Shown here piece after piece: positions 11,605-38,894 of a stretch of DNA of 64,000 bases. The notes beneath the pieces are model-generated. The model worked only from the letters and a program-made list of their open reading frames with translations, was not told the DNA's origin and searched no databases. Position numbers and translations under genes: made by a program. The DNA comes from Elsinoe ampelina (lineage: Eukaryota): contig ML992506.1 in NCBI GenBank assembly GCA_010093995.1, positions 1,505,508 through 1,569,507 of the forward strand, read 5' to 3'. How positions within the stretch are numbered: the first letter of the stretch is position 1; each line of letters opens with the position of its first letter.

Positions 11605-14600
11605 CTACATATCAGCGACGGGCGCTTTTTGTACAGGTTCGTCGGATTTGCTCTCCAGGGGCTGTTCCTCAGTCATTACCGCCTCTGCTGGTTTTGCGTC
11701 CTCTCCATTCGTCTCGGACTTTGCCTCTGCGATGCTGTCACCAGTAGCGCTGACAGGGCTAGCTATCGCTTCTTCTTTGATCTCCTTTGCCAAAGCCGAC
11801 GGGTTCGAGGTCTCGCCACCTAACGATTCGCGCGCTTTGCTCCGCTTTGTGTAATCCGATAGGCTCATCTTCTTTCGGACAGGACTTGGGCTGACTGCAG
11901 CGTTGACATTCGGCGAAAAAAGAGGTGCTGTCAAGGGGGCGGAAGCTGGACCTGGCGTCACAGCAGTCGGCGATTGTATGAAAGATAACGAAGGCGTTCC
12001 GGCTATCGCTGAAGAAGGTTGCATGGCTGCGAAATTGGTTGGAGGTGGCATCTCCAGATGCATCGGAGGTATTCGTGATCCCGTTTCTGCAGGCTTCGGT
12101 TGCTCTGGTGAAGGTGATGGCTCCTTTGCAGGCTCAGGCTGTGTCTGATCCTGTATCGGCGGGGGCGCCTGCTCGTCCACTATGGGATTCGAGGTGATCT
12201 GGGAACCGCCGTCTGTGACTGATGGACTTGAATTTGGAGGGGAGATGGGCGTTGCCTGCTTATCTGCAGGTGACTCTGTCTTGACTTTTGTCATCAGCTC
12301 TGCATCAGGCATTACTGTGTCGATGTCATCTGCTAAAGGCACGAGTCGCGGCGAAGTATATGGTATTTCTGGCTCGACGGGGGCCTCTTCCAGTGCATCT
12401 GCTGGACCTGGTGGAGTCGATTTGTGAGGTGGCGATTTGGGGTCAACATCCATGGCGTCAAGTGTTGATTCTGCAGGTGGCGAAGGCTGCTGCTGGGTAC
12501 TCGTGTTTTTCTTGAAGTTGTTTGAGAAGCATCGCTTGAGCAGGCGTTGCGAGACGGAGACGTATCGTTTTCGAGGTCGAGGAGGCGTCTTTTGGGGTGA
12601 CTCATCGGTATCCATATCGCACTGTATCGAGAGATCTACGTAGGTCGATGTGGTCGAGCGAGGTGGTACAGCAGACTCTTTTCGTGGTGGTTTCGCCGTT
12701 CCAGCTTTCCGTTTGCTGCTTGAATTTCGTGAATGGAGTTGCGGTCGACTTGAGGTCCCAGCATCTGTATATCTCGAGCCAGTTCCGTTCGGTTTCTGCT
12801 GCACGCACTTAGCATTGCCATGTGAAATCGATGTGAAGTTGGGACGCACCGAAGATGCTGCGCCTTGGGGAGTGAGCGCAGAGCCACCACTGTGTCGTTT
12901 CTTCTTCGCTCGACCACTTTCAACCTCCTGACGACGGAACATTTCCTCTTCACGCATCAATTTCTTCTTCTCGCGCTCAGACAATTCCGATATGCCGTTC
13001 ATGGTCGGTACATTCCCGGAGTAGTGTGTGTTTGGTGTGATGTCGCGGCTCGCCGAAGCTTGTGATTCAGAAGCAGATCGCGATTCGGTGCCCTCGTCGT
13101 CTTGATCGGTCTTCCGGACTTCGCTTGCCGATCTGCTACGGTTGATGGACCCAGTGTCGAGTGCAGGTAGCTTCTTTCTTCTTGTGCTAGGCTTTGTGGG
13201 CTGGAGGGGCGGAGAAACGCCACGGCGATCGTAGTGCGCCATGAGACAGTTGGTGGAACCATTGTGTCGGTACGCGTCACAAGCACAAGGTCCACAGTTG
13301 GCCAACACATTGGAGACCCACGTCGAGATGTACTCTCTGGTTTTTGGCTGGAAGTTGCTAGATGTAGCCAAACTCGAATTGATGCGCTCTCGTATAGTTT
13401 GGGGCACTTGCCAGGCGATGGTGATTTCGTCCTCGGGCATGATTTCGGTCTTGGCCATGAAACAGAAGTGGTATGAGGTCTGATCCGTGATAATGGTCTG
13501 AAGCTCGGCGTTGGGTTGACAGCTCCGGCGGACGAATCGGAATCGAGAACCTTCCTGGCGCGCATCGATGCATATCGGTAATTGAGTGTGGAAGAAGACC
13601 ATGGGTTCCGGGTGATGTAACAACGACCATCTGTTTTCCACTTCTTGGATGTACTCATCTTGAAGGCTGATACGACCTCTCAGCTCGCCGATGAAAGTTC
13701 CTGCCGCGACATGATCTTTTGCGACAAGACGTGGCCATCGAGCAGAGCCGGTCTCGTTGGTGACCCGCTGATCCTCAACCCACTCGACGGTCGTTGGTGG
13801 GCGCCCAGGTATTTCCTCTATTCGGCCATCCCATCTCTTGAAGATTTCTGCCTGTGTGAGACCGCCTGTCGCTCTGCTTACAGCTTCAGGATCCGTAAGC
13901 CAGTCTGAAAGGTGAGCAGTCACGGTAATGTTGTTCATCAGATTGGTTTGCATCTCCACTTCTGGCGACTCCGGGCTGAAGGTATTGAGGAACTCTTCCG
14001 AGTAGAGTGGAATGAAGGTGGAAGTATCGAGTTCTGGCGACTTCGAAGGGCTCCTGGCAGTAGAGGCATTGGCGGTACCTGCTCGCTTTCGCGATGATTG
14101 ACTGATCGAATTGGACGACCTGTGCGAGGTCTTTGGCTTCTTCGCGGGTGGAGGCTGATCTCGTGGGCTGGCACTCTTGCGATCATGGTTGTGGATGTGA
14201 TTGTGTCGATCTGACCAGCCGTTCGCTTGAGCTGTCAACGAAGGTGACTCCTTGGCCTTTTTCTTTGGTGCTTTCGCAGGTGGACGCTTGACTCCATTTA
14301 TGCCGTTCCGTTGTTCGTACGCTCGTCGTTGACGTTCGGTAGCCTTTCTCGCATCAAGGTCGTCTTGTGGGACGCACTCCGTGCAGTAGTGCTTCTGGTC
14401 GTCTCCGGGTACTTCCTTTGGGGGAGGATAGTAACACGAGATGTGCTGCCATCTCAGACACTTGTCACACTGTACCGTGGCACCATCGTCGCCCGTATAC
14501 GCGCATATACAAGCGATTTCTCCATCATCGTCATCAGCAGTCTCCTCACTCGTGAGGGCTATGGGAGCGGACTGATGGTGAAAGTGCTCGAATGTAGGTA

Positions 14601-14661
14601 CAGGACCAAGCGGCTGGAGATTGGCAGCTGTCGGTGTCGCTAGCGACAGGGCTTCTGTCAT
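11605..14661 (-). CDS. SET3: Set3/Set4-like PHD-finger and SET-domain protein (Set3C HDAC complex subunit)
   Basis: PHD finger CIC...QCDKCLRWQHISC...HYCTEC. The degenerate SET domain has RRSCQPNA in place of NHSC, typical of the Set3 family. Probable 51-nt in-frame intron at 12799-12849. Confidence 0.88.
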   Translation of the reverse strand: MTEALSLATPTAANLQPLGPVPTFEHFHHQSAPIALTSEETADDDDGEIACICAYTGDDGATVQCDKCLRWQHISCYYPPPKEVPGDDQKHYCTECVPQDDLDARKATERQRRAYEQRNGINGVKRPPAKAPKKKAKESPSLTAQANGWSDRHNHIHNHDRKSASPRDQPPPAKKPKTSHRSSNSISQSSRKRAGTANASTARSPSKSPELDTSTFIPLYSEEFLNTFSPESPEVEMQTNLMNNITVTAHLSDWLTDPEAVSRATGGLTQAEIFKRWDGRIEEIPGRPPTTVEWVEDQRVTNETGSARWPRLVAKDHVAAGTFIGELRGRISLQDEYIQEVENRWSLLHHPEPMVFFHTQLPICIDARQEGSRFRFVRRSCQPNAELQTIITDQTSYHFCFMAKTEIMPEDEITIAWQVPQTIRERINSSLATSSNFQPKTREYISTWVSNVLANCGPCACDAYRHNGSTNCLMAHYDRRGVSPPLQPTKPSTRRKKLPALDTGSINRSRSASEVRKTDQDDEGTESRSASESQASASRDITPNTHYSGNVPTMNGISELSEREKKKLMREEEMFRRQEVESGRAKKKRHSGGSALTPQGAASSVRPNFTSISHGNAKCVQQKPNGTGSRYTDAGTSSRPQLHSRNSSSKRKAGTAKPPRKESAVPPRSTTSTYVDLSIQCDMDTDESPQKTPPRPRKRYVSVSQRLLKRCFSNNFKKNTSTQQQPSPPAESTLDAMDVDPKSPPHKSTPPGPADALEEAPVEPEIPYTSPRLVPLADDIDTVMPDAELMTKVKTESPADKQATPISPPNSSPSVTDGGSQITSNPIVDEQAPPPIQDQTQPEPAKEPSPSPEQPKPAETGSRIPPMHLEMPPPTNFAAMQPSSAIAGTPSLSFIQSPTAVTPGPASAPLTAPLFSPNVNAAVSPSPVRKKMSLSDYTKRSKARESLGGETSNPSALAKEIKEEAIASPVSATGDSIAEAKSETNGEDAKPAEAVMTEEQPLESKSDEPVQKAPVADM

Positions 14662-15807
14662 GCTAGATGATCCGACAGCGTCAGACTCAGCAGATCGATC
14701 TATGTTGCTTGGAAATCAGCGATTCTGCGTCGCATGACGAGTAGACGAGTCTATCGGCAAGATTGGCGAAGTTGACTGCTGCAGAGGACCGTCATCCAAG
14801 GACTGATGGACCGTTTCGTGCTGAAGACCTCGGTGATGAGGGGGTTCGATCACACTCTTCAGCGCGTGTTTCTGGACAATCTTTGGCGACAGAGATGTTC
14901 GAGAGTGTATTCCTTGCTCTTTCCGAACAGTTTCTGGCCAGAGCCGTACCTGACAGAAGTGAAACGTTCCTTGTACGTGCAGATTCTTGATCAGAAGGTG
15001 GGCGCGGGAGAGAAGGTGTGCCTTGTGGGTATCGAATGAATGCGCTTCGCTTGTAAATCGTTAATTTGCGGCTTCGACAGGTCGATAGATGATAAGATAG
15101 TCGTATGAGGCATGCAAAAGGCGGTATCGAGTGAGAAGGGATTGACAAAAGAGCCTCCCAGAGAGGACTTCCTGCAGAAAGGGAACCAAGGCACCTTGTT
15201 TCTCATTGGTCAGCGCGAAGAAGAACGATCACGTGACAGGTCCAAGCGCACGACGCGAATTTGGCGGCTGCCGTCGCCCAGGTAGTGCCGAAACACATGC
15301 GTAGAATGTCCTGTCGCCATCGTTATGCATGGCTCTGCACATCCTCTTACTCCAGCCTGATGGGAATACCCTTTCGATGAACGAAGATATTTTGATGATC
15401 GGACTGTTCTTTACATGAGTAGAATGCGCCCGTGGGAAGATAACAGTTCAGAACGGGAAGCCATTGTCTCACCAGTCCGTTTTGGGCAAGGTCCGGCCAC
15501 TAGCGCCATGAGATGTGAAGATCCAACTTTCTGACTGTTCGTTCTCCTCTCTTCCCTGCACACCCTTCCTTCCAAGACCCTCTCAATTCCTTAGCGCTCC
15601 ATTCACGACACCGACTCGATTAGCAGCCATATCTCTGGCGCTGGCTACGCTTCGGTCCCGATATGTCAATGCGTATTCTGTCTCTCTTACCCGACATTAC
15701 GCAGTTGGTGTGTTCCTGGAGCTTTCAAAGCGCTTTAGCGGGCACTTGCACTTTAGAGGTCGCTACATAGACTAAATGGACCTCCTTTGCGATAACCAGG
15801 TTGCGTT

Positions 15808-15840: not shown

Positions 15841-16771
15841 AGAACAAGTGCAAGCCGGCCAACTGCCATGGATCCTGTTCACATCTTAATCATGAGCAAA
15901 TGTGACCCGGCAAGATGTCCATGATTGTGTTTCGCCCTCCGGTTCTGGATGCAGGTTTCCCCGGATTAGTCGTCCACTGTCTGAGTCGCGATGATGGCTA
16001 GTAATCTGCTTGGAAAGCGATGATACTCGTGTCAGATGTAGGTGTTATGAACGTCCATCGCCCGTGATCTTTACAGTCCTACAACGAGGTTTGCGGCGTA
16101 AGGGAGATCGAAATTCGATGCGGAATGGCTTCTGCAGAAGGTATCTGATGAGACAATGGAGGTACGCAAAGACTTGAAGGCGCACTGGGTAGATTGACCC
16201 TGTCTGGGCGCCAGGAAGGAGTCACGGAAGGTGTACAGAGATTGTGTAGTGAAAACGAATTCTCCGACTCCATAGTCCATGTTTATACTCATGCCTGCAC
16301 ATGTCAAGACCATGTGGCGGAGCGAGAACCGTTTGAAGAATGAACAATTTCGGTTCGGCGGAGGTGAGGAACCAGTACAGGGTTACCAGCAAAGGGACGT
16401 CCGGACCGAAGGCGAAGGGCACGTCCAGCCAAAGTGTCTCGTGATTGCTCAAGCCCTTTTCCGCTACGGAGCGCACGTCTCTCCGATACCTGACAGCCAA
16501 TCTCCCACCCGTTATACATATCGATCTAAACGTTTGCACTTTTTTGAAACGCATAGCATGTGCCGCTCACACTTTCCGAGGCAGGCATCTGGACCGCCGA
16601 CCATAGAAGAATAGTCTCAGTCCTTCTCCGTCAGAATCACGACGCACATGAGACATACAAACATGCGACTCACACCAGTATAAACGCCCGCTTCTTCTTG
16701 CGTCACTCTTTTAGACACTCTCGACGTGTCGCCTGTAGGCGTCTCCCCTTAGAGAAGCGCCAGCAGTGATC

Positions 16772-17725
16772 ATGGCCGACCAAGAGCATGGAATGGGAGA
16801 GGTGGCTGGGTCTGACAACAAGACATGTCCAAAGGCACCTAATCCTTGCGCGGATGCAAGACTGGAAGCCGAGGAGAAGGCGCAGGGCACAGCAGACTCA
16901 ATGCTGGTGGTGGACGGCGAAGAGTGGGATTTTGCGCTAGCTACAGCGACGGGAGCAGTCAAGCTGTTGATCACAGCTGTATCTGCTCTGGCGGAGATCA
17001 CTGGTGATGTACCTCCAACACCACCCGCTTCACGCCCAACGACACCTTCGGAGAAAGCCTTTGAGTCGAAACAAGAGAAACGGAGCGAGCCCCGCTATCC
17101 CATGTCACCTGTCTCTCCAGTGTCTCCAGCTTCCAACAATGGGACGGCCATCCTTCCGGTCGCTATGCCCAGTCCGGAAGCGCATCGAGATGAGCCAATA
17201 CCAGAGGTTGGAGTCGGAGCCCAAGCCGAGACTCGTGTAATTCAGCAGATGGCCATATCTCGGCGCTTCTTCTTGAAGACGGTGCCGCCATTCACGCTGT
17301 CACAATATCTGTTACGACTACACCAATACTGCCCTCACAGCCCTGGTGTGTACTTGACAGCGGCAGCGTATGTGCATCGCCTATGCGTTACGGATACGCT
17401 GGTGCCTGCTACGAACAAGACTATTCATCGCGTCTGCCTGGCGGCGATCAGAGTAGCAAGTAAGGCACTCGAAGATCACAAGTGGTCACAAGACAGGGTT
17501 GCAAAGGTCGGCGGTGTGAGTCGGAAGGAGCTCAAGAGTCTGGAAGTCAACCTTTGCTTCCTCCTCGACTTTGACCTCTTTGTCAGGGAAGCCGAGCTGA
17601 AGAGGCGTGTCTACGAGCTCCAGGAGGCTGCAAAGCAAGGCATTTCGATCAAGAAGAGATTGAGCATCAGTTTCGGCTCGCGTCTGCCTGTTCGCACCAT
17701 CTCCGAAGCTACGGAAGTGGGATGA
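16772..17725 (+). CDS. Pho80/Pcl7-like cyclin (Pho85 cyclin)
   Basis: Cyclin box PPFTLSQYLLRLHQYCPHSPGVYL...TIHRVCLAAIRVASKALED...AKVGGVSRKELKSLEVNLCFLLDFDL. First ATG is at 16772. Confidence 0.88.
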   Translation: MADQEHGMGEVAGSDNKTCPKAPNPCADARLEAEEKAQGTADSMLVVDGEEWDFALATATGAVKLLITAVSALAEITGDVPPTPPASRPTTPSEKAFESKQEKRSEPRYPMSPVSPVSPASNNGTAILPVAMPSPEAHRDEPIPEVGVGAQAETRVIQQMAISRRFFLKTVPPFTLSQYLLRLHQYCPHSPGVYLTAAAYVHRLCVTDTLVPATNKTIHRVCLAAIRVASKALEDHKWSQDRVAKVGGVSRKELKSLEVNLCFLLDFDLFVREAELKRRVYELQEAAKQGISIKKRLSISFGSRLPVRTISEATEVG

Positions 17726-21270: not shown

Positions 21271-21705
21271 GACACTTGAACGCATTCACGGCACAGGATT
21301 GGTCGTGGGAAGTGGTTTCTGCGGGAACAGGAACGAGGACGAAAGGGATGGCGTTGGATTGAGGGGCTATTTTGGTTGCACCCTGCATTGCATTGATGAT
21401 TCAACGGATGGTGGGGGGGGGCACGTCGACGGGAGCAGCAGGGGAAAGGGAAGCGTTGCTTTGTTTGATACCCCTGGTGGGGCTGGGCAGGGCATACATG
21501 GTCATTAAATGCTGTACTATAGACGAGAAGATACCCGAATGTTACGCTACTCTTGGTAGATTATATAAACTTCCTCTTCCTCCCAAAATGCTTGCTCCAT
21601 GTCCACGATTCCGGTGTCTGGTAGGAGCAACGGGCGTTCTGTGAACCGCTCTTGCGCAAGATTGTGATCCGTCTAACTGCACCAAATATGGCTCTCTCGG
21701 TCTGT

Positions 21706-23802
21706 TCATAGCGCAAATACCGCAAGCGCAATCGTGAGAGCAGCCAAAGACACCGCGAGCCAACCAGAAAGCCTGATGGGTCCATCCGCGCCGCTCTTGG
21801 TGCTCGTAGTCGGCCCCGTGGCCCCATCGGTGGCTGATAGGGCATCACCAGCGACAGACGGACCGTGTCCCGTCGCGCCTACACTCGTCGGAGGACCAAG
21901 ATGTCCAGCGGATATCCTCGCTCCCGTTGTGGGGGAGCCAACTCGTTGTGTCCCTATTCTAGCTGCGGCAGTTTGGCCACCAGAGTCGCCTGCCGGCTCC
22001 CCGCCCCGCGTCGCCTCCGCCAGATCTGGACCTGAGGTCGTGCCTGCTGGCCGAGCAGCTGCTGGCACGTCCAGTCCTGAGTTGTCTGTCACCTCCGCGC
22101 TGGTGGCTGCACTGGCGCGGGCTGGGTCCCCTGCTGCTGCTTGGGATAAGTCTTGACGTATGTATTCTGCGGGTGGGTCTCCTGATGAGCCTGAAGGTGA
22201 GGATGTGTCGGCTGCTGCTAGCCTCGCAATTTCGATGACTTCGCCGGCTATTCTGTTGCCGACTGGTTGTGCCGGGTTGTCAGGAGGAGATGAGTCAACA
22301 TAGTCGTCGTTGTCGGGAGGGGAAGCTGCTTGATTGTTGGAGTTGCGCTGTTTTGGGTCGTCTGGCGGTTCAGAACTAGGGTTACTGCCACCCTGCGCGG
22401 AAATATCTGGTCCTGGTTGACTTGTGCCTGTGTTTGAAGGAGGCTCGAATGCAGCATGGAACGTCGAAGATGGATAAGCAGTCGCCGCTGTTTCTTGAAC
22501 CGTGGTAGGCATAGTCGGTGCCGGTATCGCACGCTGAGTCGTCCTCAGTATGTCACTAGTCGTTTGCGCAGACCGCGTGGGCACCTGAAAAGTTCCTTGG
22601 GTTTGTAGTATAATGGGCGGATCGAGTAAGCCCCAGTACGCGAACTGACATGTCGACCATAGCGGATCGAGTCCTCGAAGGCCAGGTGGAACAGCCAGTT
22701 GAGGGCGGAATTCGTGCTCTTTGATCACCGTACAGCCTGAATCGCCACGAGGTCCTGCACACATGGCTTGACCGTTCCATGCTGACCAGGGAATTGGCGA
22801 ATTAAAGTCTGCGTAGGACACCGGGTAGCCCTTCTGGATTTTGCTTTCCTGGAACCATTGCGTGAAGTCTTGCTTGTAGCGGATGCTTAGCACAGACTCT
22901 GGCTTCAAGGCGACTACGACGTCATGGATGTTGGGGCCGATATGCTGGCCACACCGATTCTTTGCGTACACCGTGCCGATTGACACGTATGCAGTGTTGG
23001 AGGTGAAGGTATGTCCATTCGCAACAGCTGTCACGGCGTCCGGGTCAGGCGTGCCAGTGTGCGACTTCCCGGTATATATGTCCAGAGGGGCGGCATCCAT
23101 ATTAATAGATGTGATGGTGGCGGTAGGCGTCGATGCACACATATCTCTAGATGCAGTGGTCGGAAAGAAGACCAATTGTACATGATCACCCATCAAGGTG
23201 CATGAGCCGCAGGTACCCATCGAAGCCAGGAGCGACGAGTAAGAACTGTATGCGGTATCATTCATGCATGGTGGCGTGAAGAGTGGCGCAACGCCGGGTA
23301 TCTTCAAAGTAGCTGACGCCTTGGTCATCGAATAGCTGCTCCACAATGGGTTACAATCCGACGGCTGGATCGTGCAATAAGGAGAGGGTCGATAGAAACC
23401 GTCATCATTGGTGACGACTCCAGTGACATACGATATAGGTCCTTCCCAGCTACGAGTATAGCCCGAAGATATAGGCATGAGCGTCGTCGGACCAGTGACG
23501 CGAGGGTAGCCGTCGCATAGAGTGGTGGCGTTCTTGTACCATGTCATCCATCGATACTGTAACCCGCCGACTTGGCTGGTGTACGTCGATTCGGTCCTAT
23601 TTGCGCTTGTCCAGGACCATGCGGCCGAGCTGTAGTCCAAATAGGACGACTGGCAGTCTGCGGCGAACGCAGCTCCGGTGCTGATTGTGGGTGGTGCGGT
23701 CACCGTGCCAGTCTGAGCGCGAACCGCGATCACATAGCAGAGGGCGATGAGCAGTATACTCCAGAGCCAGCCTATGCGAGTCGATGATTGTCGAGCAGTC
23801 AT
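21706..23802 (-). CDS. Secreted, probably GPI-anchored cell-surface protein with a Cys-containing globular domain and Ser/Thr/Pro-rich stalk
   Basis: Hydrophobic signal WLWSILLIALCYVIAVRA, a Cys-rich region, a low-complexity stalk, and C-terminal SGA...LSGWLAVSLAALTIALAVFAL (GPI-signal-like). Confidence 0.75.
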   Translation of the reverse strand: MTARQSSTRIGWLWSILLIALCYVIAVRAQTGTVTAPPTISTGAAFAADCQSSYLDYSSAAWSWTSANRTESTYTSQVGGLQYRWMTWYKNATTLCDGYPRVTGPTTLMPISSGYTRSWEGPISYVTGVVTNDDGFYRPSPYCTIQPSDCNPLWSSYSMTKASATLKIPGVAPLFTPPCMNDTAYSSYSSLLASMGTCGSCTLMGDHVQLVFFPTTASRDMCASTPTATITSINMDAAPLDIYTGKSHTGTPDPDAVTAVANGHTFTSNTAYVSIGTVYAKNRCGQHIGPNIHDVVVALKPESVLSIRYKQDFTQWFQESKIQKGYPVSYADFNSPIPWSAWNGQAMCAGPRGDSGCTVIKEHEFRPQLAVPPGLRGLDPLWSTCQFAYWGLLDPPIILQTQGTFQVPTRSAQTTSDILRTTQRAIPAPTMPTTVQETAATAYPSSTFHAAFEPPSNTGTSQPGPDISAQGGSNPSSEPPDDPKQRNSNNQAASPPDNDDYVDSSPPDNPAQPVGNRIAGEVIEIARLAAADTSSPSGSSGDPPAEYIRQDLSQAAAGDPARASAATSAEVTDNSGLDVPAAARPAGTTSGPDLAEATRGGEPAGDSGGQTAAARIGTQRVGSPTTGARISAGHLGPPTSVGATGHGPSVAGDALSATDGATGPTTSTKSGADGPIRLSGWLAVSLAALTIALAVFAL

Positions 23803-24203
23803 TCGGACATGGTCAAAGCAGTGCTGTGCCACTTCGCATCCTTTCGGAGAGAGGTGGAGGAATTTTTGGAGGTTTCATTCGAAACGGCGTGACGGGTGCC
23901 CTTTTGATCTGGTTGTCTGTCTAGGTTTGATGCAACGGCTGCTGACCTTGATACGGATCGTAATCTTACCCGTTACATCGCCGTCACGTGACAGCCCTGG
24001 TAAAATGTCCCCGCGTTTAGGGCATCATACACCGCGACCAAACCTCAACCTGTCATTACCTGCCGTCTTCTACGCCACCTGCTCCTCAAATCAAGCCAAC
24101 CCAATTGTTTTGGGCGAGTCACACATGATATCAAGACCCTCACGCCAATACGACGGGCCGTAGCAAATGCTCATAAATATTTCTCATAGGTATCGCCACA
24201 ATG

Positions 24204-26144
24204 TCATCGCCACGGACTACTCCCACCACTGATACTCGCGCTATCAAACTCCAACGCCGCCTGGTCTATCTGCTTGAACTTGTCCCTCGCAGCCTGCAAC
24301 TCCTTGCTCAAGCTCTCACCGTCCTCATCATCACTTCCTTGCTCCTCATTTTGATCTCTCCGACTTCGGCCGTAGGTCTTGCTGGACACTTTTGGTGCTT
24401 TAGAGCCCTGAGTCTTCCGCTTGGCCTTGCTAGGGTCTACTACATCTCCTTCGGCGTTCTCCTTCTCTTCTCCTCTCATCGTCCGTGTAGGTTTCGTCTT
24501 GCCTGAAGTGCGGCCAGTGCTGAGCTTCATGATCTTCTTTCCCTTTGCCTCGCTGAGAACTCTTCTGGAGGTCTTCTTTGCAGGTCGATTGTCGTCATCG
24601 CTTTCTATGCCGCTAACATCGAAGGTCTCGTCCCGTTTCACGAGCCGTCGAGGTAGTAATGACCTGAGCATTGCGCTTGTTATTTTTTTTTCCTGCTCAG
24701 GCTTAGGAGCTGCCGCGCCTCTCCGCTTCTTCGGTGACGGTATGATTTCCACTTCGTCCGAGACGGAGCTGTCGCTTCTCGGGTCCGCATAGACGTCGCT
24801 ATCGAGGTCGTTGTGGCGGGGTGTGCTACTGCGGCCACTACTCTCTGCATCGAAGAGTGGAAGGCTGGCTGAGCGGGCGGGCGACAGATCCGATGATGAT
24901 CCAGATCGCGCTGTACCTCGTCCTCGACGTGGCGGCTCTGGCGCAGGCGGACTGGAACGCATGACTTCCACCGCTGCACCTCCTGTCGTTCGCTGTGTCG
25001 CATGGTCTTGCGTGCCCTGCACAACAGCGCTCTCATGAGCCGAGCTGATTTCGTCACTCTTGCGCTTCGTCCCTCGCTTCTTACGTGGAGAGACCACATA
25101 GAGATCTTCGTCATCGTCGTAGAGACTCTTTCGTCTCTCCGCTTCAGTCATGGTGGGCTCAAAGCGGCTGGGCAGTGGTGTACCCTCTAAATCCGGCCGG
25201 AAGGCTTCGTCGTCCATAGTCATGTCTCCCAGCTCTTCCCCCAAGTCTAAAGCAGGGCCGCCGCTGTCCTCGTTCACCTCGGGGTCCGGCACTTGACCCG
25301 CGGTGTCCCTCGCCTCAGTCGTGCCCGTCACGTCGGCAGTCGTATCCAGCGCACTGGTTCCTAGCTCATCTGTCCCCTCCATAAACGAGTCCGTCTGATC
25401 GAGCACACTGGTGTCCAGGATGCCGCCTCTGACTGCAGTCAATATTGAATTCTGCCTCGGCCTCATCCGGAACATCTGTAGTGCCTGTACCGAGGAGTCC
25501 CCTGCCAGCGGCGTGAAGCCTATCTTCTTCGCACTTTTGGCCGCTGATCGAGGCGTGCTTGTGATCTTTCCTGCCCCTTCTGTCTTTCTTGTGCTGCTCT
25601 TGGCCGGCGTGTGTGTCTTCCGTTGCGCAGCTGGCGTTTTGGCGATACTGCTCCTCTCCTCTCCCGTGGTCTTGCTCTTGCTCACAGTGGTAGCCATCTC
25701 CCCTTGCGAGCCAGGCACGTCAAATTCGTCCCTTTCATCTCGCTGGTCTGTCCCTGCCTGCCGTCTTCTTGCTTCCAAAGCTCCAGACACTCTCGCGATG
25801 GGATCTTGCCGCGCTCTCCTCGAAGGCGCATTGCGCACTAGTCCACCCGTAACATCCTCATCCTCATCCTGCCCTTCGTCCTCGTTGTCAATCTCACTTG
25901 CGGTTTTCCGTCCTCGAGCAGGTCGTGTCTTCGGAACGATTTCTGGCGAAGTCTTCTGGCCAAGCTGCTTGCTCTTCGTCGCACTCTTCGCCGCCACCTT
26001 TTTCTTCGGCTTCGCGACTAAGGGCGCATCCTCTGCCTCCGTGTTCGCGGCGGCGCGACGCGCTGTTCTTCCTCCTGGTTCCGGAGTGGTCTTCGCGGGT
26101 TGCGGTGCTGGCGCGGCGGCCGCTCTCGTCCGTCTCGGCGGCAT
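24204..26144 (-). CDS. Largely disordered nuclear protein, candidate Sororin (Sor1)-like cohesin regulator
   Basis: 646-aa intronless ORF with NLS-like SPRKKR and SPKKRR, KEN (24456-24464), KTYGR (24366-24380) and C-terminal ELQAARDKFKQIDQAALEFD. The gene itself is well supported; the Sororin identity is inferred. Confidence 0.7.
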   Translation of the reverse strand: MPPRRTRAAAAPAPQPAKTTPEPGGRTARRAAANTEAEDAPLVAKPKKKVAAKSATKSKQLGQKTSPEIVPKTRPARGRKTASEIDNEDEGQDEDEDVTGGLVRNAPSRRARQDPIARVSGALEARRRQAGTDQRDERDEFDVPGSQGEMATTVSKSKTTGEERSSIAKTPAAQRKTHTPAKSSTRKTEGAGKITSTPRSAAKSAKKIGFTPLAGDSSVQALQMFRMRPRQNSILTAVRGGILDTSVLDQTDSFMEGTDELGTSALDTTADVTGTTEARDTAGQVPDPEVNEDSGGPALDLGEELGDMTMDDEAFRPDLEGTPLPSRFEPTMTEAERRKSLYDDDEDLYVVSPRKKRGTKRKSDEISSAHESAVVQGTQDHATQRTTGGAAVEVMRSSPPAPEPPRRGRGTARSGSSSDLSPARSASLPLFDAESSGRSSTPRHNDLDSDVYADPRSDSSVSDEVEIIPSPKKRRGAAAPKPEQEKKITSAMLRSLLPRRLVKRDETFDVSGIESDDDNRPAKKTSRRVLSEAKGKKIMKLSTGRTSGKTKPTRTMRGEEKENAEGDVVDPSKAKRKTQGSKAPKVSSKTYGRSRRDQNEEQGSDDEDGESLSKELQAARDKFKQIDQAALEFDSASISGGSSPWR

Positions 26145-26273
26145 GTTTTCGACCGCTCGAATTGGATTGTCCTAGGTATGAGAGCGCAAACTACCGCATT
26201 GGTGTCTTTAGTGATTTGCTCGTGATGGTGTGAGATGAAAGAAAATGTGGTGACGTTGCGGGGAACGAAGAGA

Positions 26274-26289
26274 ACGCGTCTTGACGCGT
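26274..26289. promoter_or_regulatory. Tandem MCB (MluI cell-cycle box) elements
   Basis: ACGCGT at 26274-26279 and 26284-26289, 130-145 bp upstream of the ATG at 26144. Confidence 0.65.
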
Positions 26290-26474
26290 GGGGATGTTTG
26301 GCTGCGGTACGGAGGCATGCAGGCAGAGCTAGCAGGGGGTGCTTGACAGTTCATTTCATTGTGACAACGACATCTTTGCCAACTATGGAGGATTCATTAC
26401 TGAGTTGCATGTGACACTGCTTGTGGTAGATCACAGTTTCGGGACTATCTGGTCATCAAGCTGGCTACCTAACC

Positions 26475-28720
26475 TCACTTACCACTCCCGTACAGATCCT
26501 TCTCTACCATCCCTCTGCAGATAGGATGATAGAATTCCCTATGCTTTTCGAACGTCTTCTTCGCAAGCTCTTCATCGCAGGCTTTGAGGCCTCGGTATAA
26601 TGGCCGGACGAACTTCATCCTTCCTACACGGCCGAGCAGCTCCGCCGTAGGCTCATACACGCTCTTTGCCTTGGCCTTCAATCCCACAACAAAGAATCGA
26701 GAGACGAGCTCAACGTTGTTGCTTTTGGCGAAGCCATATGTCGAGCCCATCAAATCTACCAGCTTTGGATCGAGTGGCTTCTCAAAGGTCTGCACTTTCT
26801 CAAGAAAGACGACGGATTGATTTGCTTGCCATCCTTCGAGGTCTGATGACAAAGGCTTGAACTCTGCACCACTGGTGTTGAGTGCCGACCATTTGTCTGC
26901 GAGAGCGTAGCATGCGTCGACCATGCTCGTATCGTAGTCAGGCTTGGGCGGATAGCCTGGCTTGTAGAACCATGTGTCCCAGTCTAGATCATTGAGCTTT
27001 TTGCTAGCCTCCGAGTCACCGGAGAAGAAGTCGAGAAGCGTAGCCTTGAAGTCGTAGCTGTCAAGCGATTTTCGTTCGTATGTCTTGAAGTACTGTTGCA
27101 CGTCAGTGGGGACTTGATAGTCATGCAATTTGTGCTACATACGTGAGGGATGAATTTGTCCCACTTGTCCTTGCCGACCAGCTTCTCCAGGTTATACAAG
27201 AAGACGAATCCCTTCTCGTAGGGAATGCTGCTGAACGCATCATCAGGATCTTTGCCTTTGAGGTCAACGATCATCTTGGTGAACTCATGATCGGTCCCAA
27301 AATTCTCAATACTATCCGAGAGCGCTTTCCATCCGATGATGGCACTGAAGTCTCTATGCGGCTCGCCATGAACAGCGGCCTGGATTCGGCGCTCCAAGTA
27401 TGTCGTCCAGCCTTCGTTCAACCAAAAGTGTTCCCAAGAAGCATTCGATACCAAATTACCTGACCAAGAATGTGACAGCTCGTGAGCAATCACGTCAATG
27501 TTCTGACGGTCTCCAGAGATGATTGTTGGCGTAGCGAAGGTGTAGATCGGGTTCTCCATGCCACCGTAGGGAAACGAGCTCGGCAATACCAGCACATTAT
27601 AAGTGCCCCATCTGTATGGGAAGACAATATCCTCGGCTACTTTGATGAACTGCTCGGTGCCACCTTCAAGCTCCCACTTGGCGCCTTCAAGCTCGTCAGG
27701 GCCTGTCCAGACTGTGCTCCGAGGTCCGATGTCTGCTTTCGCAATGTCGCCACTGGCCAGAGCGAAGAGATAAGACGGGATCGGGACGGACTGCTTAAAG
27801 GTGTACACTTTCTTGCCAGGAGACGCATCTTTTGAGCTGTCGGGCAGTCCCGATGCAAGAACGGGCAACGGGGATGTGATGTTGAACGTGAAGGTCGACT
27901 TGACATCTGGTGTGTCCTGACAGGGAAAGATTGATCTAGCATGAATGGCCTGGCATTGAGAAACTGTACAGTGTCAGATTCTGTCACAATATCGATACTT
28001 CGTATGCACTGACACATGTATGGGTGCTTCTGATTCGAGGTTTGAGCCGCTGTCAGCCACTGCAGTGCTGTGCAATCCTTGGTAGTCGAGACATGGATCT
28101 GGCAATGGTTAGTTTTATCCCCCGCGGTGATCACAGTCCTTGCTGACCTCCACAGCTGCATTCCCAGATGTGCCCTCAGGCACATTGATTGTCAGAGGGC
28201 TGCCATATGGCTCATAACGTGATGCAAGATCCCACGTGGCTCTCGATCCGTCCACGGAGACTTCAGTGACATCCAAGAAGCTGTGATTAAGTCAGGACAT
28301 CCAACTATAAATGCTTTCGGTACTCCTATCGATTGCAATTTTCCAAAGGAGGACATCAAAAGTTTCATACCTTGTATCCAGAATAATCTTGTCAGCACTG
28401 TTATGTAGCTGCTTCATATCGAGCGTGACCCTTCCCGCCACCTTCTTGCCCTCAAAGTCGATATCAAGATCAGCGGTGACATGTTCGGTCCTCCAAGCAT
28501 TATAGTTCGAGAGTGTGTTGGGATCTCGTGGTTGGTGTATTGACGTGTCCCCGCCCACAGGCAGTTGCTGCACAGCTGCAGGAGCTTTATGCATGGTGGT
28601 CTGGTGGAAGCAATATTTTGGTACCCGGAATGGTGACGGTATCGAGCAGCTAGTACGCGGGACGAAGCGAACAGCCTTGGTATATGAGGCCAAGAGACTG
28701 TATCGAGCAAAAGCTCGCAT
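26475..28720 (-). CDS. LAP2: Leukotriene A4 hydrolase / leucine aminopeptidase 2 (M1 zinc peptidase), multi-exon
   Basis: Contains [26 protein letters not shown]...WLNEG (HExxH-x18-E), PYEKG and [10 protein letters not shown]. Frame changes coincide with GT-AG introns. Confidence 0.93.
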
Positions 28721-29110
28721 TGATTCAAGGCAGTATTCAATATTCAGTGCTGTATTTTGGGCCTAGGGTGACGAGCTGAAGTCTCTCGGTTTGGTGCGGA
28801 CCTTCCACTTTTGGACATCCGAGCATCAAGCACAGCGAAGTAATTGACTCCATCATCTCATGTTCACGACTCAAATAGATCGACAGATCGAAATCAAAGG
28901 TATACCTAGGTAGCATTACGCCGGAGTATCAGACTATATAAGCGCGCGCAGGTGTCCATAACCGTCCCAGAACTCTCTCGCCGAGAAGAAGCCAACCAGT
29001 CGTGAGTGGAAATATCATAACCCCTTCCATGTTTGTTCAAGCAGCTTCGAATCAGATATCGTATTGCAATCAAAAAGCCAGTGAGAAGGGTCAGAGAAGT
29101 AAATATAGGC

Positions 29111-36839: not shown

Positions 36840-38894
36840 CTATGATTCGTTGGCTGCCTTGTTCACCGGAAGCAGGCAGCCAGCGAAATAGTTGCCCAGG
36901 CCCTCCACATCCTCGAGCTCGCCAATGAATCCGGTGTAACCATCTGGACGGACAGCTACGACGCAGCCTCTGCTCGGGTCGACGCCATATCCCTGATAGG
37001 CATGACCATGGCCCTCATGGTAGCTCTCGTCATCCACAAAGACCTTGTTGTAATCCCAGCCCATGTCGTTTGGTCGTAGCGGGTGGAGAATGGCCGGGAA
37101 GTCATCGAGAAGTTCAACCTCCTTTCGCGGCGCAGAGTGGATGGTCAGGATTTCGATGACCGAGTCGATGGTAGCGTTGGATGGTGTGTATTTCTTCAAC
37201 CAGCTGTCGGACTTGTCTGCCTCTGCGCACCAAGCTTCCACCCTCTTCTTCTGCTCGGCTTGCTTGACATTGCCAGCGAACAGGATCACTCTGTATCGTC
37301 CATCGCTCTTCAACCACATCTGGAACGGCCATGGTCGTGCGCCAGACTGGTTCAGCACCTGGTGGCTGGGGAAGCGCATGCCTAGCGGCGCGTTCTTGCA
37401 CAGCGACTGCTTACTGACCGCCTTTGCTGCGGCGCTCTCGACGTCGGTACCATCACCCTGCTCCTTTGCGCTTCCTTCTTTGGCGACAAGCATGCTCTTT
37501 CCGTAGTCGACGCTCAAGCCGGAAGCAAACAGAGCGCCCTGCTTGAAGACCCTCTTAAACTCCTCCATGTCAACACCTGCCTCGTCTGCGGCGTCTTTTG
37601 CAGGTCGACCGCTGAACAGTCTGCTAAACTTGTGGTCGAAGTCGATGAGGTCCTTTGCGATTCTCCTCCGCTCGCTCTGGTAGGTCTTGAGGATACTCCG
37701 CGGAGCCTTGCCCTGTACGACGTGACCAATCTTCCAGGCCAAGTTGTAGGTATCCTGCATGCTGACGTTCATTCCTTGACCAGCCTTTGGCGAGTGTGTA
37801 TGTACCGCGTCTCCGGCGAGGAAGATCCTCTCACTCTGCGAAAAGTTGGTGCCGACTCGCTGTCCAATCTGATATGCCGTCCACCAGTGACAGTGCTTGT
37901 ACTCCAGCTTGTACGGCGCCAGTACCTTTTGCGCACTCTTGAGAATAAGATCTGGATTGATCTTGCTCCTGTCCGCCCTGCCACTCTCCGCATCTGGCTT
38001 GATTTCGTGCAATTGCACATACAGCCTGACCAGACTGTTCTCCCTCGGGATCACCATCAAACTCCCACTACTCTCCGAATGCACACTGCACCTATTCCTG
38101 ATATCGGGAAAATCCGTCACCGGCACAATATCCAAGACACCCCAGATATAATCCGTGGGCTCCCCCTCCAGCTTGAACCCCAACTGCTTCCTCGTCCAAC
38201 TATGCGCGCCATCACAGCCAATAACATACTTTGCTCTAATCGTCTCCTCCCTCCCCTCCATCCCGGACGTCTTCTTCACCAACTCATCCGTATCGTCGGG
38301 CGCCAGATTACTCCTAAACAACCCATCACTCACCCCCTGCCCACTCTTACTCTGCTCAGGACTCGCCTCATCCTCGGACAAATGCCTCACCACGACCTTG
38401 ACCGGATACGCATCCTTGTCCTCCACCTCCCCATGCTCCAACTCCATACTCAACGGCAAAACCCCCCTCTCAACCACGACCTCCTTCCCCTGCACCTCCC
38501 TCCCATACTTGGCCATATTATCCAGGAAAAACCTCTCAATCCGCCCCTGATGCAACACGCTCTCATGCCACCTACTAATCCCAACCGGCGTGTCAGGCAC
38601 CCTATCGTCCCGCCGCAACCTCCCCGTGGCCGGGTCCGGGTTCCACATGGAGAACTCGACCATGTGGTTCGCTTCTTTCCACACGCGGTCGGCGAAGCCC
38701 AGCGACTCGAAGATCTCGAGCGTGCGGCACTGCAGCCCGTCCGCTTGCCCCGTGAAGATTTTGGTCGAGCGTTTGTCGATGATGCGCACGCGCACGGGCA
38801 GGTGCGAGAGTTGCGTCGCGGCCATGAGGCCGGCGGGGCCGGCGCCGATGATCAGGACGTCGGTGGTGGAGTCGGGGGCGAGGGGGGCGGGCAT
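36840..38894 (-). CDS. FAD-dependent phenol 2-monooxygenase (PheA/TfdB family with C-terminal thioredoxin-like dimerisation domain)
   Basis: DVLIIGAGPAG, GQADGLQCRTLE, YVIGCDGAHS, FLAGDAVHTHSPKAGQGMN and VRPDGY. The likely ATG is at 38894. Confidence 0.92.
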   Translation of the reverse strand: MPAPLAPDSTTDVLIIGAGPAGLMAATQLSHLPVRVRIIDKRSTKIFTGQADGLQCRTLEIFESLGFADRVWKEANHMVEFSMWNPDPATGRLRRDDRVPDTPVGISRWHESVLHQGRIERFFLDNMAKYGREVQGKEVVVERGVLPLSMELEHGEVEDKDAYPVKVVVRHLSEDEASPEQSKSGQGVSDGLFRSNLAPDDTDELVKKTSGMEGREETIRAKYVIGCDGAHSWTRKQLGFKLEGEPTDYIWGVLDIVPVTDFPDIRNRCSVHSESSGSLMVIPRENSLVRLYVQLHEIKPDAESGRADRSKINPDLILKSAQKVLAPYKLEYKHCHWWTAYQIGQRVGTNFSQSERIFLAGDAVHTHSPKAGQGMNVSMQDTYNLAWKIGHVVQGKAPRSILKTYQSERRRIAKDLIDFDHKFSRLFSGRPAKDAADEAGVDMEEFKRVFKQGALFASGLSVDYGKSMLVAKEGSAKEQGDGTDVESAAAKAVSKQSLCKNAPLGMRFPSHQVLNQSGARPWPFQMWLKSDGRYRVILFAGNVKQAEQKKRVEAWCAEADKSDSWLKKYTPSNATIDSVIEILTIHSAPRKEVELLDDFPAILHPLRPNDMGWDYNKVFVDDESYHEGHGHAYQGYGVDPSRGCVVAVRPDGYTGFIGELEDVEGLGNYFAGCLLPVNKAANES

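What the first reader, a model, noticed from the sequence alone, without database searches (positions are those of the whole stretch)
24204..26144. Hidden Sororin-like cohesin regulator in a 'hypothetical' disordered protein
Seen: the last ~90 residues contain, in order, a KEN box (EEKENAE, 24456-24464), SKTYGRSR (KTYGR at 24366-24380) and a terminal amphipathic segment ELQAARDKFKQIDQAALEFD. The rest is basic/acidic and disordered, with many S/T-P sites and NLS-like stretches. Established: KEN is an APC/C-Cdh1 degron; [KR]-[ST]-Y-[SG]-R is the Pds5-binding motif of Wapl, Sororin and Haspin/Hrk1; Sororin ends in a short F...L-x-[FV]-E cohesin-binding domain, and a fission-yeast Sororin-like protein (Sor1) has been described. 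Inference: this is a Pezizomycotina Sororin orthologue (Wapl antagonist) that ordinary annotation would leave as hypothetical.
Basis: partly seen in the sequence, partly recalled or inferred. Interest (0 to 1): 0.78.

Follow-up and report, generated by a model that had tools for sequence, protein, structure and literature searches.

The report
Elsinoe member of fungal Sororin family
This gene encodes a mostly disordered nuclear protein whose tail carries the marks of Sororin, the protein that stops Wapl from removing cohesin, and it belongs to a fungal family that the literature has already flagged as Sororin.

Summary
The ORF at 24204-26144 (-) encodes 646 aa. KEN (24456-24464), KTYGR (24366-24380) and a C-terminal helix lie in the stated order.

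A profile from the Elsinoe clade finds 318 representative proteins at E<=1e-3 across Pezizomycotina. Almost all end in [KR]TYGR..SDKEN...SKELxAAxxKFxEVDxWEMEFES...SSPWR. The box matches the published animal Sororin-box consensus, exactly so in 17 Pleosporales-type members. AlphaFold2 gives one confident 23-residue helix there in an otherwise disordered protein. Spliced transcript contigs cover the ORF without an intron. Two MCB-like ACGCGT sites sit in the promoter.

The family is already flagged in print:
- a Pezizomycotina family found through Pyrenophora (2024);
- an Aspergillus fumigatus Sororin box modelled on Smc3:Scc1 (2023);
- Sordaria Sororin genetics (2025).

So this is a new member of a known kind.

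Limits: there is no significant Pfam Sororin_C hit, and no cohesin sequences were available to model binding. The Elsinoe clade also lacks the second conserved aromatic of the box and has moved its KEN.

Small new points: the TYGR-KEN tandem is family-wide, five more conserved motifs are unassigned, and a stored 510-aa model cuts off all three motifs.

The parts
24204..26144 (-). Coding sequence of 646 aa plus stop, with no intron. It is the Elsinoe member of the Pezizomycotina Sororin-like family.
   Evidence: ORF and translation. It is colinear with full-length orthologues of 629-648 aa. Transcript contig X1 record 2 bridges 24229-26226 with no joint.
26274..26289 (.). Two ACGCGT (MCB-like) sites 10 bp apart, 130-145 bp upstream of the ATG.
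   Evidence: only 6 ACGCGT sites in 64 kb (about 12 expected), and 2 of them lie here. That ACGCGT marks G1/S (MBF) promoters is recalled knowledge; it was not tested.
25431..25535 (-). Conserved block A, residues 204-238 (family consensus TP..E.S.LAL.NFKRRPRQPS.L.MV). Partner unknown.
   Evidence: The core F[KRQ][RKM]RP[RK] occurs in 224 of 349. Short helices at 218-223 and 234-239, pLDDT 64-78.
25173..25214 (-). Conserved block B, residues 311-324 (DDF.P..ESTPL). Partner unknown.
   Evidence: F.P..E[STG]TP occurs in 291 of 349.
25053..25082 (-). Basic cluster KKRGTKRKSD, residues 355-364 (NLS-like; RKRKSD is conserved).
   Evidence: The nuclear-import role is inferred.
24771..24800 (-). Conserved block D, residues 449-458 (S.TMA.P.SSSP in the family; SDVYADPRSD here).
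24642..24677 (-). Conserved block E, residues 490-501 (TA.LQ.LLP.RR). It forms a short confident helix. Partner unknown.
   Evidence: L493, L497 and P498 are invariant in 81 sequences. L..LLP.R occurs in 284 of 349. Helix 490-495, pLDDT 73-86.
24603..24626 (-). Conserved block F, residues 507-514 (FD[IV].SS). The stored 510-aa model of this gene ends inside it, at codon 510 (24615-24617).
24456..24464 (-). KEN box, residues 561-563 (EEKENAE). Putative APC/C-Cdh1 degron. In this clade it lies 28 residues before TYGR rather than after it.
   Evidence: Kept in the clade. Clade-specific position.
24354..24419 (-). Basic stretch, residues 576-597, containing KTYGR.
   Evidence: [quoted passage not shown]
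24366..24380 (-). KTYGR, residues 589-593. A YSR/YG[KR]-type motif and putative binder of the Pds5 APDAP loop.
   Evidence: T590, Y591 and G592 are invariant in 7 sequences. T590 and Y591 are >=90% conserved in 81. Binding was not tested.
24309..24353 (-). Acidic/polar linker of 15 aa, residues 598-612. The ancestral KEN position (SDKEN in the family) falls here and has been lost.
24240..24308 (-). Sororin box, residues 613-635 (SKELQAARDKFKQIDQAALEFDS). Predicted helix 614-636.
   Evidence: F623 and D627 are invariant in 81 sequences. pLDDT 85-88. Consensus comparison.
24207..24239 (-). Family-specific tail, residues 636-646, ending SSPWR (an S-P-x-R site at the very C-terminus).
   Evidence: S642, S643, W645 and R646 are >=90% conserved in 81. 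340 of 349 end in R and 184 end in ..WR.

Best explanation
The gene encodes the Elsinoe orthologue of the Pezizomycotina Sororin family: a nuclear, intrinsically disordered protein that protects cohesive cohesin from Wapl.

Proposed mechanism (inferred from the literature on relatives, not shown here):
1. The C-terminal helix (residues 614-636), with F623, I626, D627, L631, F633 and D634, lies across the Smc3 neck / Scc1 N-terminal domain junction. It holds the DNA exit gate shut.
2. The basic patch with KTYGR (589-593) docks on the Pds5 APDAP loop, in competition with Wapl's own YG[KR]/TYxxxR motifs.
3. The KEN box (561-563) hands the protein to APC/C-Cdh1 after mitosis.
4. The two MCB-like sites in the promoter restore expression at G1/S.
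5. The [ST]P sites, including the terminal SPWR, allow CDK control.

Shown here: the motifs and their conservation, the family relationship, the predicted helix, and the unspliced transcript.
Inferred: every binding step and the cell-cycle regulation.
For: Orthologues and family:
- There are six hits in Elsinoe/Sphaceloma, one of them a truncated copy of this same gene (P0003), plus one distant Dothideomycete. The full-length ones keep all C-terminal features.
- A full-length profile of these 7 sequences finds 318 representatives at E<=1e-3 and 134 at E<=1e-10. Nearly all align up to their own C-terminus.
- Named members span Dothideo-, Eurotio-, Sordario-, Leotio-, Lecanoro- and Geoglossomycetes, and all are labelled hypothetical.

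The box (n = 349 family proteins fetched):
- 341 carry F..[hydrophobic][DE]...[hydrophobic].[hydrophobic][EDN] in the last 60 aa.
- 324 have an aromatic at +6.
- 17 fit the published animal core F.E[A/hydrophobic][ED].[FY]EL.[hydrophobic]E exactly, and 158 fit if W and M are allowed (consensus from PMC10656103 section 10).
- The 17 exact fits are Pleosporales-type; the named ones among them are Alternaria, Exserohilum, Parastagonospora and other Pleosporales. This is the order of Pyrenophora, where Prusen Mota et al. found their hit.
- Pfam Sororin_C aligns, below threshold, exactly on the box of one such member: P0054 residues 442-456, profile positions 7-21 of 24, E 0.0039 as a fragment and 0.024 full length.

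Structure: AlphaFold2 with 81 sequences gives a disordered chain with one long helix, 614-636, at pLDDT 85-88. This fits the published 'six-turn helix'.

Architecture: a basic stretch, a 15-aa polar linker and then the box, as in the Methods of PMC11148194.

TY motif and KEN: of the 340 proteins with a box within 45 aa of the C-terminus (out of 349), 290 have a KEN and 288 have a TY motif within 160 aa upstream of the box.

Link to a characterised member: the reverse primer of the Sordaria Sororin-GFP fusion encodes the C-terminus SPVADAR. That is the tail type SPx(0-2)[DGE]AR found in 71 of 349 family members.

Transcript: spliced transcript contigs cover 24229-26226 without a joint.

Promoter: twin ACGCGT sites.
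Against: - There is no statistically significant link to animal Sororin. Pfam Sororin_C gives 0 hits for this protein at E<=10. It hits only 1 of 81 and 0 of 72 relatives, below the gathering score.
- A profile search of the PDB found no Sororin chain.
- This protein and its clade have A or G where 328 of the 341 members with a box have W, F or Y. That position matches human F247 and S. pombe Y305, and Y305A inactivates Sor1. E at +2 and +7 of the animal consensus is also missing here.
- No FGF motif occurs in any of the 349 members.
- The published fungal accessions (XP_001941430.1, SMAC4_08091, the A. fumigatus protein) could not be fetched, so identity with them is inferred.
- The high box frequency is partly circular. 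Two of the three searches that built the set used profiles containing the C-terminus; the third used a single full-length member.
Confidence: 0.8

Rival explanations
1. It is a true family member but with a weakened or re-purposed Sororin box. The Elsinoe clade lost the second key aromatic (W to A/G at +6) and moved its KEN. It may therefore act mainly through Pds5 docking or through the other conserved motifs, rather than as a gate lock.
For: In a 58-row tree, 9 clade members form one group (support 91), all with A or G at +6. The KEN lies before the TY motif, or the strict TY motif is missing. +6 corresponds to Sor1 Y305, whose alanine mutant is non-functional, and to human F247.
Against: The rest of the box stays under strong constraint in the clade. 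LSKELQAARDKF.QID is nearly identical from Elsinoe to Sphaceloma, and F623, D627 and F633 are invariant across those sequences. The helix is predicted with pLDDT 85-88. Only the double mutant F241A/F247A was tested in human cells.
Confidence: 0.1
2. It is a Pezizomycotina-specific disordered nuclear protein unrelated to cohesin. The box, the TYGR and the KEN resemble Sororin by convergence or chance.
For: No significant HMM match to Sororin_C. The motifs are short. Five further conserved blocks have no counterpart in animal Sororin.
Against: Three independent Sororin features recur in the published order and spacing across the family. 17 members fit the animal core exactly. The published HMM walk reached a Pezizomycotina family through a Pleosporales protein. 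The Sordaria Sororin's C-terminus is of the family's tail type. That protein opposes Wapl genetically.
Confidence: 0.07
3. It is a different known regulator: an Sld2-type replication factor (one UniRef cluster label) or another protein with a Pds5-interacting motif, such as Haspin or Wapl.
For: P0037's cluster carries the UniRef name 'DNA replication regulator SLD2'. YSR-type motifs also occur in Wapl and Haspin (for Wapl; Haspin recalled).
Against: None of the 153 members scanned matches an Sld2, kinase or Wapl Pfam family at E<=1. This protein has no Pfam hit at all.
Confidence: 0.03

Closest known systems
Pezizomycotina Sororin-like family. It is reported through Pyrenophora tritici-repentis XP_001941430.1 (PMC11148194, Methods) and an Aspergillus fumigatus Sororin modelled on Smc3:Scc1N (PMC10656103, section 10, f90).
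   Same: It is a Pezizomycotina-wide family of uncharacterised, mostly disordered proteins with the best conservation at the C-terminus. Pleosporales and Aspergillus members are in my hit lists (P0212-P0216, P0242, P0150, P0223). The box fits the Sororin consensus.
   Different: The published accessions could not be fetched, so identity is inferred. The Elsinoe clade has A/G instead of the aromatic at +6 and a relocated KEN.
Sordaria macrospora Sororin, SMAC4_08091, 701 aa (PMC12758814)
   Same: It is a long, unstructured Pezizomycotina protein with C-terminal Sororin boxes and no FGF. Its C-terminus, SPVADAR (decoded from the GFP-fusion primer), is the tail type seen in 71 of 349 family members. 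Its deletion delays Pds5/Rec8 loading on meiotic axes, and wapl deletion is epistatic.
   Different: That paper states that the Sordaria protein has no KEN box. Here a KEN is present, and 290 of the 340 members with a C-terminal box have one. I could not see the Sordaria sequence to check. The tail here is SSPWR, not ..DAR.
Schizosaccharomyces pombe Sor1 (SPAC9E9.05)
   Same: It has a C-terminal Sororin domain with F299, V302 and D303. These correspond to F623, I626 and D627 here. It associates with Pds5 and Psm3, and wpl1 deletion partly rescues the mutant.
   Different: Sor1 is 313 aa, has a putative FGF and no KEN. Its essential Y305 corresponds to A629 here.
Vertebrate Sororin (CDCA5) and Drosophila Dalmatian
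   Same: They have a KEN degron, a YSR-type Pds5 motif, a basic stretch and a C-terminal six-turn helix carrying the Sororin box. The box locks the RAD21-SMC3 gate.
   Different: Human Sororin is 252 aa (it ends at E252) and ends right at the box's last acidic residue, whereas the fungal proteins add about 11 residues ending SSPWR. FGF is absent here. In vertebrates the YSR motif is described next to FGF; here KEN lies next to TYGR. W233, F247 and E243 have no identical counterpart here. Sequence similarity is below significance.

Membership tests
Sororin (CDCA5 / Dalmatian / Sor1 / AtSORORIN) | A Sororin box at the extreme C-terminus: F-x-x-[A/hydrophobic]-[ED] ... L-x-[hydrophobic]-[ED]. | tested here: met
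   F623-K-Q-I626-D627-Q-A-A-L631-E-F633-D634 lies 12 residues from the end. F623 and D627 are invariant in 81 sequences. The consensus is taken from PMC10656103.
Sororin (CDCA5 / Dalmatian / Sor1 / AtSORORIN) | The second conserved aromatic of the box (human F247, Sor1 Y305). | tested here: not met
   A629 occupies this position. Among the 341 family members with a box, +6 is W in 276, F in 45, Y in 7, and G, A, V or L in 13, including the whole Elsinoe clade.
Sororin (CDCA5 / Dalmatian / Sor1 / AtSORORIN) | The box is predicted as a short (about six-turn) alpha helix in an otherwise unstructured protein. | tested here: met
   Helix 614-636, pLDDT 85-88. Mean pLDDT is 46.5, and 475 of 646 residues are below 50.
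Sororin (CDCA5 / Dalmatian / Sor1 / AtSORORIN) | A positively charged stretch and a polar linker of 10-20 aa before the box. | tested here: met
   Basic stretch 576-597, linker 598-612 (15 aa). The criterion comes from the Methods of PMC11148194.
Sororin (CDCA5 / Dalmatian / Sor1 / AtSORORIN) | A significant match to the curated profile (Pfam PF25220, Sororin_C). | tested here: not met
   0 hits at E<=10 for this protein. 1 of 27 fragments hit at E 0.0039. 1 of 81 and 0 of 72 full-length relatives hit. The one hit scores 15 bits against a cut-off of 27.4.
Sororin (CDCA5 / Dalmatian / Sor1 / AtSORORIN) | A YSR-type Pds5-interacting motif. | tested here: met
   KTYGR at 589-593. The motif [KR][TSI]Y.. 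occurs in 288 of 340 relatives upstream of the box. The fungal Wapl counterpart is ..YG[K/R]. Presence of the motif is shown; binding is not.
Sororin (CDCA5 / Dalmatian / Sor1 / AtSORORIN) | An FGF motif (vertebrates and Sor1; not universal). | tested here: not met
   No FGF in this protein or in any of the 349 family members. It is also reported absent from the plant and Sordaria proteins.
Sororin (CDCA5 / Dalmatian / Sor1 / AtSORORIN) | A KEN box (animals; not universal). | tested here: met
   KEN at 561-563. 290 of 340 relatives have a KEN within 160 aa upstream of the box. Degradation was not tested.
Sororin (CDCA5 / Dalmatian / Sor1 / AtSORORIN) | Physical binding to Smc3:Scc1N and Pds5, and genetic antagonism of Wapl. 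| not testable with these tools
   No whole genome is held for this window. No cohesin gene was found among the 18 long ORFs of the window that were scanned.
Pezizomycotina Sororin-like family (literature) | Significant homology to Pleosporales, Aspergillus and Sordariomycete members. | tested here: met
   The A2 profile, built from the Elsinoe clade plus one outgroup, hits P0054 (Pleosporales-type) at 2.4e-18 and A. clavatus P0150 at 1.1e-9. The A3 profile hits Alternaria, Exserohilum, A. fumigatus and Xylariales at 1e-10 to 1e-14.
Pezizomycotina Sororin-like family (literature) | Identity of my family with the published accessions (XP_001941430.1, SMAC4_08091). | tested here: inconclusive
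The only direct link is the Sordaria C-terminus SPVADAR decoded from a primer, which matches the family tail type.

The most novel reading that the evidence does not exclude
In Pezizomycotina Sororins the Pds5-docking TYGR and the KEN degron may form one composite switch. In 243 of the 250 proteins that have both, KEN follows the TY motif, 6-23 residues downstream (median 10). Under this reading, Pds5-bound Sororin is hidden from APC/C-Cdh1 and only free Sororin is destroyed. The Elsinoe clade has uncoupled the two: it gained a new KEN 28 residues upstream and lost the old one. On the same branch it lost the second aromatic of the gate-locking helix, which suggests a re-wired regulator. The five other conserved motifs (blocks A, B, D, E, F) and the terminal SPWR site would then be docking sites for partners not yet known for any Sororin.
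Probability: 0.15. Interest if true: 0.6.

Novelty: new member of a known kind. Interest (0 to 1): 0.35.

Why it matters
It gives a name and a testable mechanism to a gene that every named database entry seen here calls 'hypothetical'. A stored 510-aa model of the gene even lacks the functional tail.

For cohesin biology the family-wide view adds three modest points:
- Two papers report that fungal Sororins (Sor1, Sordaria) lack a KEN box. Yet a KEN next to the Pds5 motif is the rule in this family (290 of 340).
- Several further conserved short motifs and a conserved SSPWR terminus have no assigned partner.
- One clade tolerates loss of an aromatic residue that is essential in S. pombe.

None of this changes the known picture of Sororin as a Wapl antagonist.

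Tried and rejected
- Pfam on the whole protein gave nothing at E<=10.
- The ESM Atlas search on residues 575-646 gave only unnamed Ascomycota clusters at 0.76, below the useful range.
- PDB profile searches gave only Mn-superoxide dismutase at E>=0.5 with the C-terminal profile and Cse4 at E 0.6-0.7 with the full-length profile. I treat these as chance. No Sororin chain was found.
- The whole-genome search failed because no genome is held for this window.
- The supplement of PMC11148194 held no usable text: 67 characters, 0 occurrences of the fungal names. Its PDF supplements, including Supplementary Fig. 1 with the taxonomic tree, could not be read and may list this family.
- The third homologue search (query P0090) was meant to reach Sordaria or Neurospora. 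P0090 turned out to be from a lichen fungus, and neither appeared in the 120 rows listed of 461 hits.
- One literature search was badly framed and uninformative. 'Sororin' plus 'filamentous fungi' found 0 papers. 'Sororin' plus 'ascomycet' found 5 papers, of which 3 were listed, and none added a fungal Sororin.
- In the look-up of sequencing runs no listed holder is on record as RNA. The runs were laid anyway.
- The Sld2 label on one relative's cluster was rejected for lack of any Pfam support.
Full report
**1. What is in the sequence**

The minus strand from 26144 to 24204 is one open frame of 646 codons.
- KEN lies at residues 561-563 (window 24456-24464, in EEKENAE).
- KTYGR lies at residues 589-593 (24366-24380).
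- The protein ends LSKELQAARDKFKQIDQAALEFDSASISGGSSPWR.

The chain is rich in S, A, R, T, D, E and K. It has 13 [ST]P sites, 5 of them full [ST]Px[KR], and NLS-like clusters.

I shuffled its own last 110 residues 200,000 times. KEN appeared in 2.3% of shuffles, [KR][ST]Y[SG]R in 0.07% and the box pattern in 0.012%. All three never appeared together.

**2. Gene model and expression**

The database holds a 510-aa protein (P0003) that is exactly residues 1-510 of this ORF. That model ends inside a conserved block and lacks all three motifs.

The orthologues in other Elsinoe species and in Sphaceloma are full length (629-648 aa) and colinear to the last residue.

Four public runs from 2 studies were laid on 21500-29000. 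The tool labels their kind 'RNA?', a guess.
- In all four runs, the contigs over the neighbouring M1-peptidase gene skip four short stretches with CT..AC ends. These are GT..AG introns on the minus strand. I therefore take the runs as transcript-derived; this is an inference.
- In run X1 one contig covers 24229-26226 with no joint. It thus runs through codon 510 (24615-24617) and through the KEN, the TYGR and most of the box.
- The full-length unspliced reading is therefore the supported one.

Only 6 ACGCGT sites occur in the 64-kb window, where about 12 are expected. Two of them sit 10 bp apart at 26274-26289, 130-145 bp upstream of the ATG. From recalled knowledge, ACGCGT is the MCB element of G1/S (MBF) promoters. 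This fits an S-phase protein but was not tested.

**3. The family**

A word-indexed search found six close relatives, one of which (P0003) is a truncated copy of this same gene, plus one distant Dothideomycete. A full-length profile of seven sequences was then scored against 1.84 billion representatives. It gave 318 hits at E<=1e-3, 134 at E<=1e-10 and 14 at E<=1e-30, with typical lengths of 400-700 aa. Almost all align to the profile's end at their own C-terminus.

Named members:

| Class | Examples |
|---|---|
| Dothideomycetes | Botryosphaeria, Alternaria, Exserohilum, Parastagonospora, Venturia |
| Eurotiomycetes | Aspergillus fumigatus, A. clavatus |
| Sordariomycetes | Xylariales |
| Leotiomycetes | Cadophora, Rhynchosporium |
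| Lichen-forming classes | several |
| Geoglossomycetes | several |

Every name given is 'hypothetical' or 'uncharacterized'. The one exception is a UniRef cluster label 'SLD2' that no Pfam scan supports.

The family consensus of the last ~110 residues is [KR]TYGR, about 5 residues, SDKEN, an acidic/polar linker, then S.EL.AA..KF.EVD.WEMEFES, about 5 residues, and SSSPWR.

**4. Comparison with Sororin**

The published animal Sororin-box consensus is [W/F/Y]xxx(hydrophobic)NxxFxE[A/hydrophobic][E/D]x[F/Y]ELx(hydrophobic)E, a six-turn helix (PMC10656103, section 10, read). The family core KF.EVD.WEMEFE fits its second half position by position.

- 341 have the relaxed pattern in the last 60 aa.
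- 324 have an aromatic at +6.
- 158 fit the animal core if W and M are allowed.
- 17 fit the animal core exactly.

The 17 exact fits are Pleosporales-type; the named ones among them are all Pleosporales (Alternaria, Exserohilum, Parastagonospora and others). Prusen Mota et al. 2024 report the matching observation (Methods, read). [quoted passage not shown]

Pfam's Sororin_C model (PF25220, 24 positions) behaves the same way in my hands:
- It hits one Pleosporales-type member (P0054) exactly on the box, residues 442-456 against profile positions 7-21. The score is 15 bits against a cut-off of 27.4, with E 0.024 full length and 0.0039 as a fragment.
- It hits none of the other 152 members scanned.
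- It does not hit this protein, even at E<=10.

Membership in the wider Sororin family therefore rests on a transitive argument. The link from Elsinoe to Pleosporales members is significant. The link from Pleosporales to animal Sororin is by consensus and architecture only. It does not rest on a significant direct match. The literature says the same of all fungal and plant Sororins.

**5. Other published criteria**

- The protein has a positively charged stretch (576-597), a 15-aa polar linker (598-612) and then the conserved motif. This matches the Methods of PMC11148194, where linkers are 10-20 aa.
- AlphaFold2 with an 81-sequence alignment gives mean pLDDT 46.5, with 475 of 646 residues below 50. 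It shows one long helix at 614-636 (pLDDT 85-88) and short helices in blocks A and E.
- TYGR matches the YSR class. More closely, it matches the fungal Wapl motif ..YG[K/R], which is predicted to sit in the Pds5 APDAP loop (PMC10656103).
- No FGF occurs in any of the 349 members. The same is reported for the plant and Sordaria proteins.

**6. Link to a characterised member**

The Sordaria macrospora Sororin (SMAC4_08091, 701 aa) was deleted and GFP-tagged in PMC12758814.
- The mutant delays Pds5 and Rec8 loading on meiotic axes.
- Most of its asci abort.
- wapl deletion is epistatic (passages read).

I could not fetch its sequence. However, the reverse primer of the C-terminal GFP fusion (S1 Data) decodes to ...SPVADAR. 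71 of the 349 family members end in SPx(0-2)[DGE]AR, including Xylariales, Leotiomycetes and lichen fungi. This is short but specific evidence that the Sordaria protein belongs to the same family.

**7. What is particular to Elsinoe**

Of the 349, 340 have a box within 45 aa of the end. Among these 340:
- 290 have a KEN and 288 have a TY motif within 160 aa upstream of the box.
- 250 have both.
- In 243 of those 250, KEN follows the TY motif by 6-23 residues (median 10).
- The 7 exceptions are six members of the Elsinoe clade and one other protein (P0339).

In this clade the ancestral site has decayed (RDQNEEQ here) and a new KEN lies 28 residues upstream of TYGR.

The same clade has A or G at box position +6, where the 341 members with a box have W in 276, F in 45 and Y in 7.

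A FastTree of 58 of the 349 sequences puts the nine clade members in one group with support 91. The trait columns were not removed from that alignment. Both changes therefore map to one branch.

Position +6 corresponds to Sor1 Y305 (Y305A is non-functional) and to human F247. One defining residue is therefore not met in this protein. The rest of the box is nearly invariant within the clade.

**8. Further conserved features without an assignment**

- Block A, residues 204-238: LAL.NFKRRPRQPS.
- Block B, residues 311-324: DDF.P..ESTPL, in 291 of 349.
- RKRKSD, residues 359-364.
- Block D, residues 449-458.
- Block E, residues 490-501: TA.LQ.LLP.RR, in 284 of 349, helix at pLDDT up to 86.
- Block F, residues 507-514.
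- The terminal SSPWR, an S-P-x-R site.

PDB and Pfam give nothing for any of them.

**9. Verdict**

This is the Elsinoe member of the Pezizomycotina Sororin family. Its most likely mechanism is the published one: the box locks the Smc3:Scc1 gate, the TYGR motif docks on Pds5, and the KEN box directs APC/C turnover.

The binding steps are inferred.

The family is already flagged in print (2023, 2024, 2025), so this is a new member of a known kind and not a discovery of fungal Sororin.

The modest new points are:
- the family-wide TYGR-KEN tandem, at odds with statements that fungal Sororins lack KEN;
- the clade-specific rewiring;
- the unassigned motifs;
- the truncated stored model.

Noticed in passing
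window 24615-24617 (codon 510 of the ORF): The protein collection holds a 510-aa model (P0003) that is exactly residues 1-510 of this ORF. It cuts off the KEN, the TYGR and the Sororin box. A transcript contig runs through this point without a joint.
   Followed up: yes
window 26274-26289: Two of the window's six ACGCGT sites lie 10 bp apart in this gene's promoter. They look like MCB elements (G1/S), which is a recalled meaning and was not tested.
   Followed up: partly
window 26424-28729 (-): The neighbouring M1-peptidase (leukotriene A4 hydrolase-like) gene has four short introns: 27093-27142, 27964-28013, 28099-28147 and 28281-28370, all GT..AG on the minus strand. All four are seen as joints in contigs of all four runs.
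   Followed up: partly
family proteins P0004-P0350 (related proteins, not the window): A KEN box 6-23 residues after [KR]TYGR is the rule in the family (243 of the 250 proteins with both motifs). Two papers say fungal Sororins (Sor1, Sordaria) lack a KEN. The Sordaria sequence could not be checked.
   Followed up: partly
window 24642-24677, 25173-25214, 25431-25535 (-): Blocks E, B and A are conserved across Pezizomycotina as strongly as the Sororin box. They match no Pfam family and no PDB chain. They may be docking motifs for unknown partners.
   Followed up: partly
window 21706-23874 (-): A 700+-aa Ser/Thr/Pro-rich ORF has a hydrophobic N-terminus and C-terminus (secreted or GPI-like in appearance) and no Pfam match. 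It is covered by a separate transcript contig (21500-23940).
   Followed up: no
window 3822-6965 (-), 11605-14715 (-), 16739-17725 (+), 36840-39296 (-): Other genes in the window by Pfam: a chitin synthase, a PHD+SET-domain protein, a Pho80-type cyclin and a phenol hydroxylase. None of the 18 ORFs scanned is cohesin-related.
   Followed up: no
P0037 (relative, Cryomyces antarcticus): Its UniRef cluster is named 'DNA replication regulator SLD2'. None of the 153 family members scanned matches an Sld2 Pfam family, so this is probably a mislabel or a fused model.
   Followed up: partly
P0223 (Aspergillus fumigatus relative): This A. fumigatus model keeps the KEN and the box but shows no TYGR where A. 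clavatus (P0150) has RTYGS. This may be real loss or a gene-model problem.
   Followed up: no
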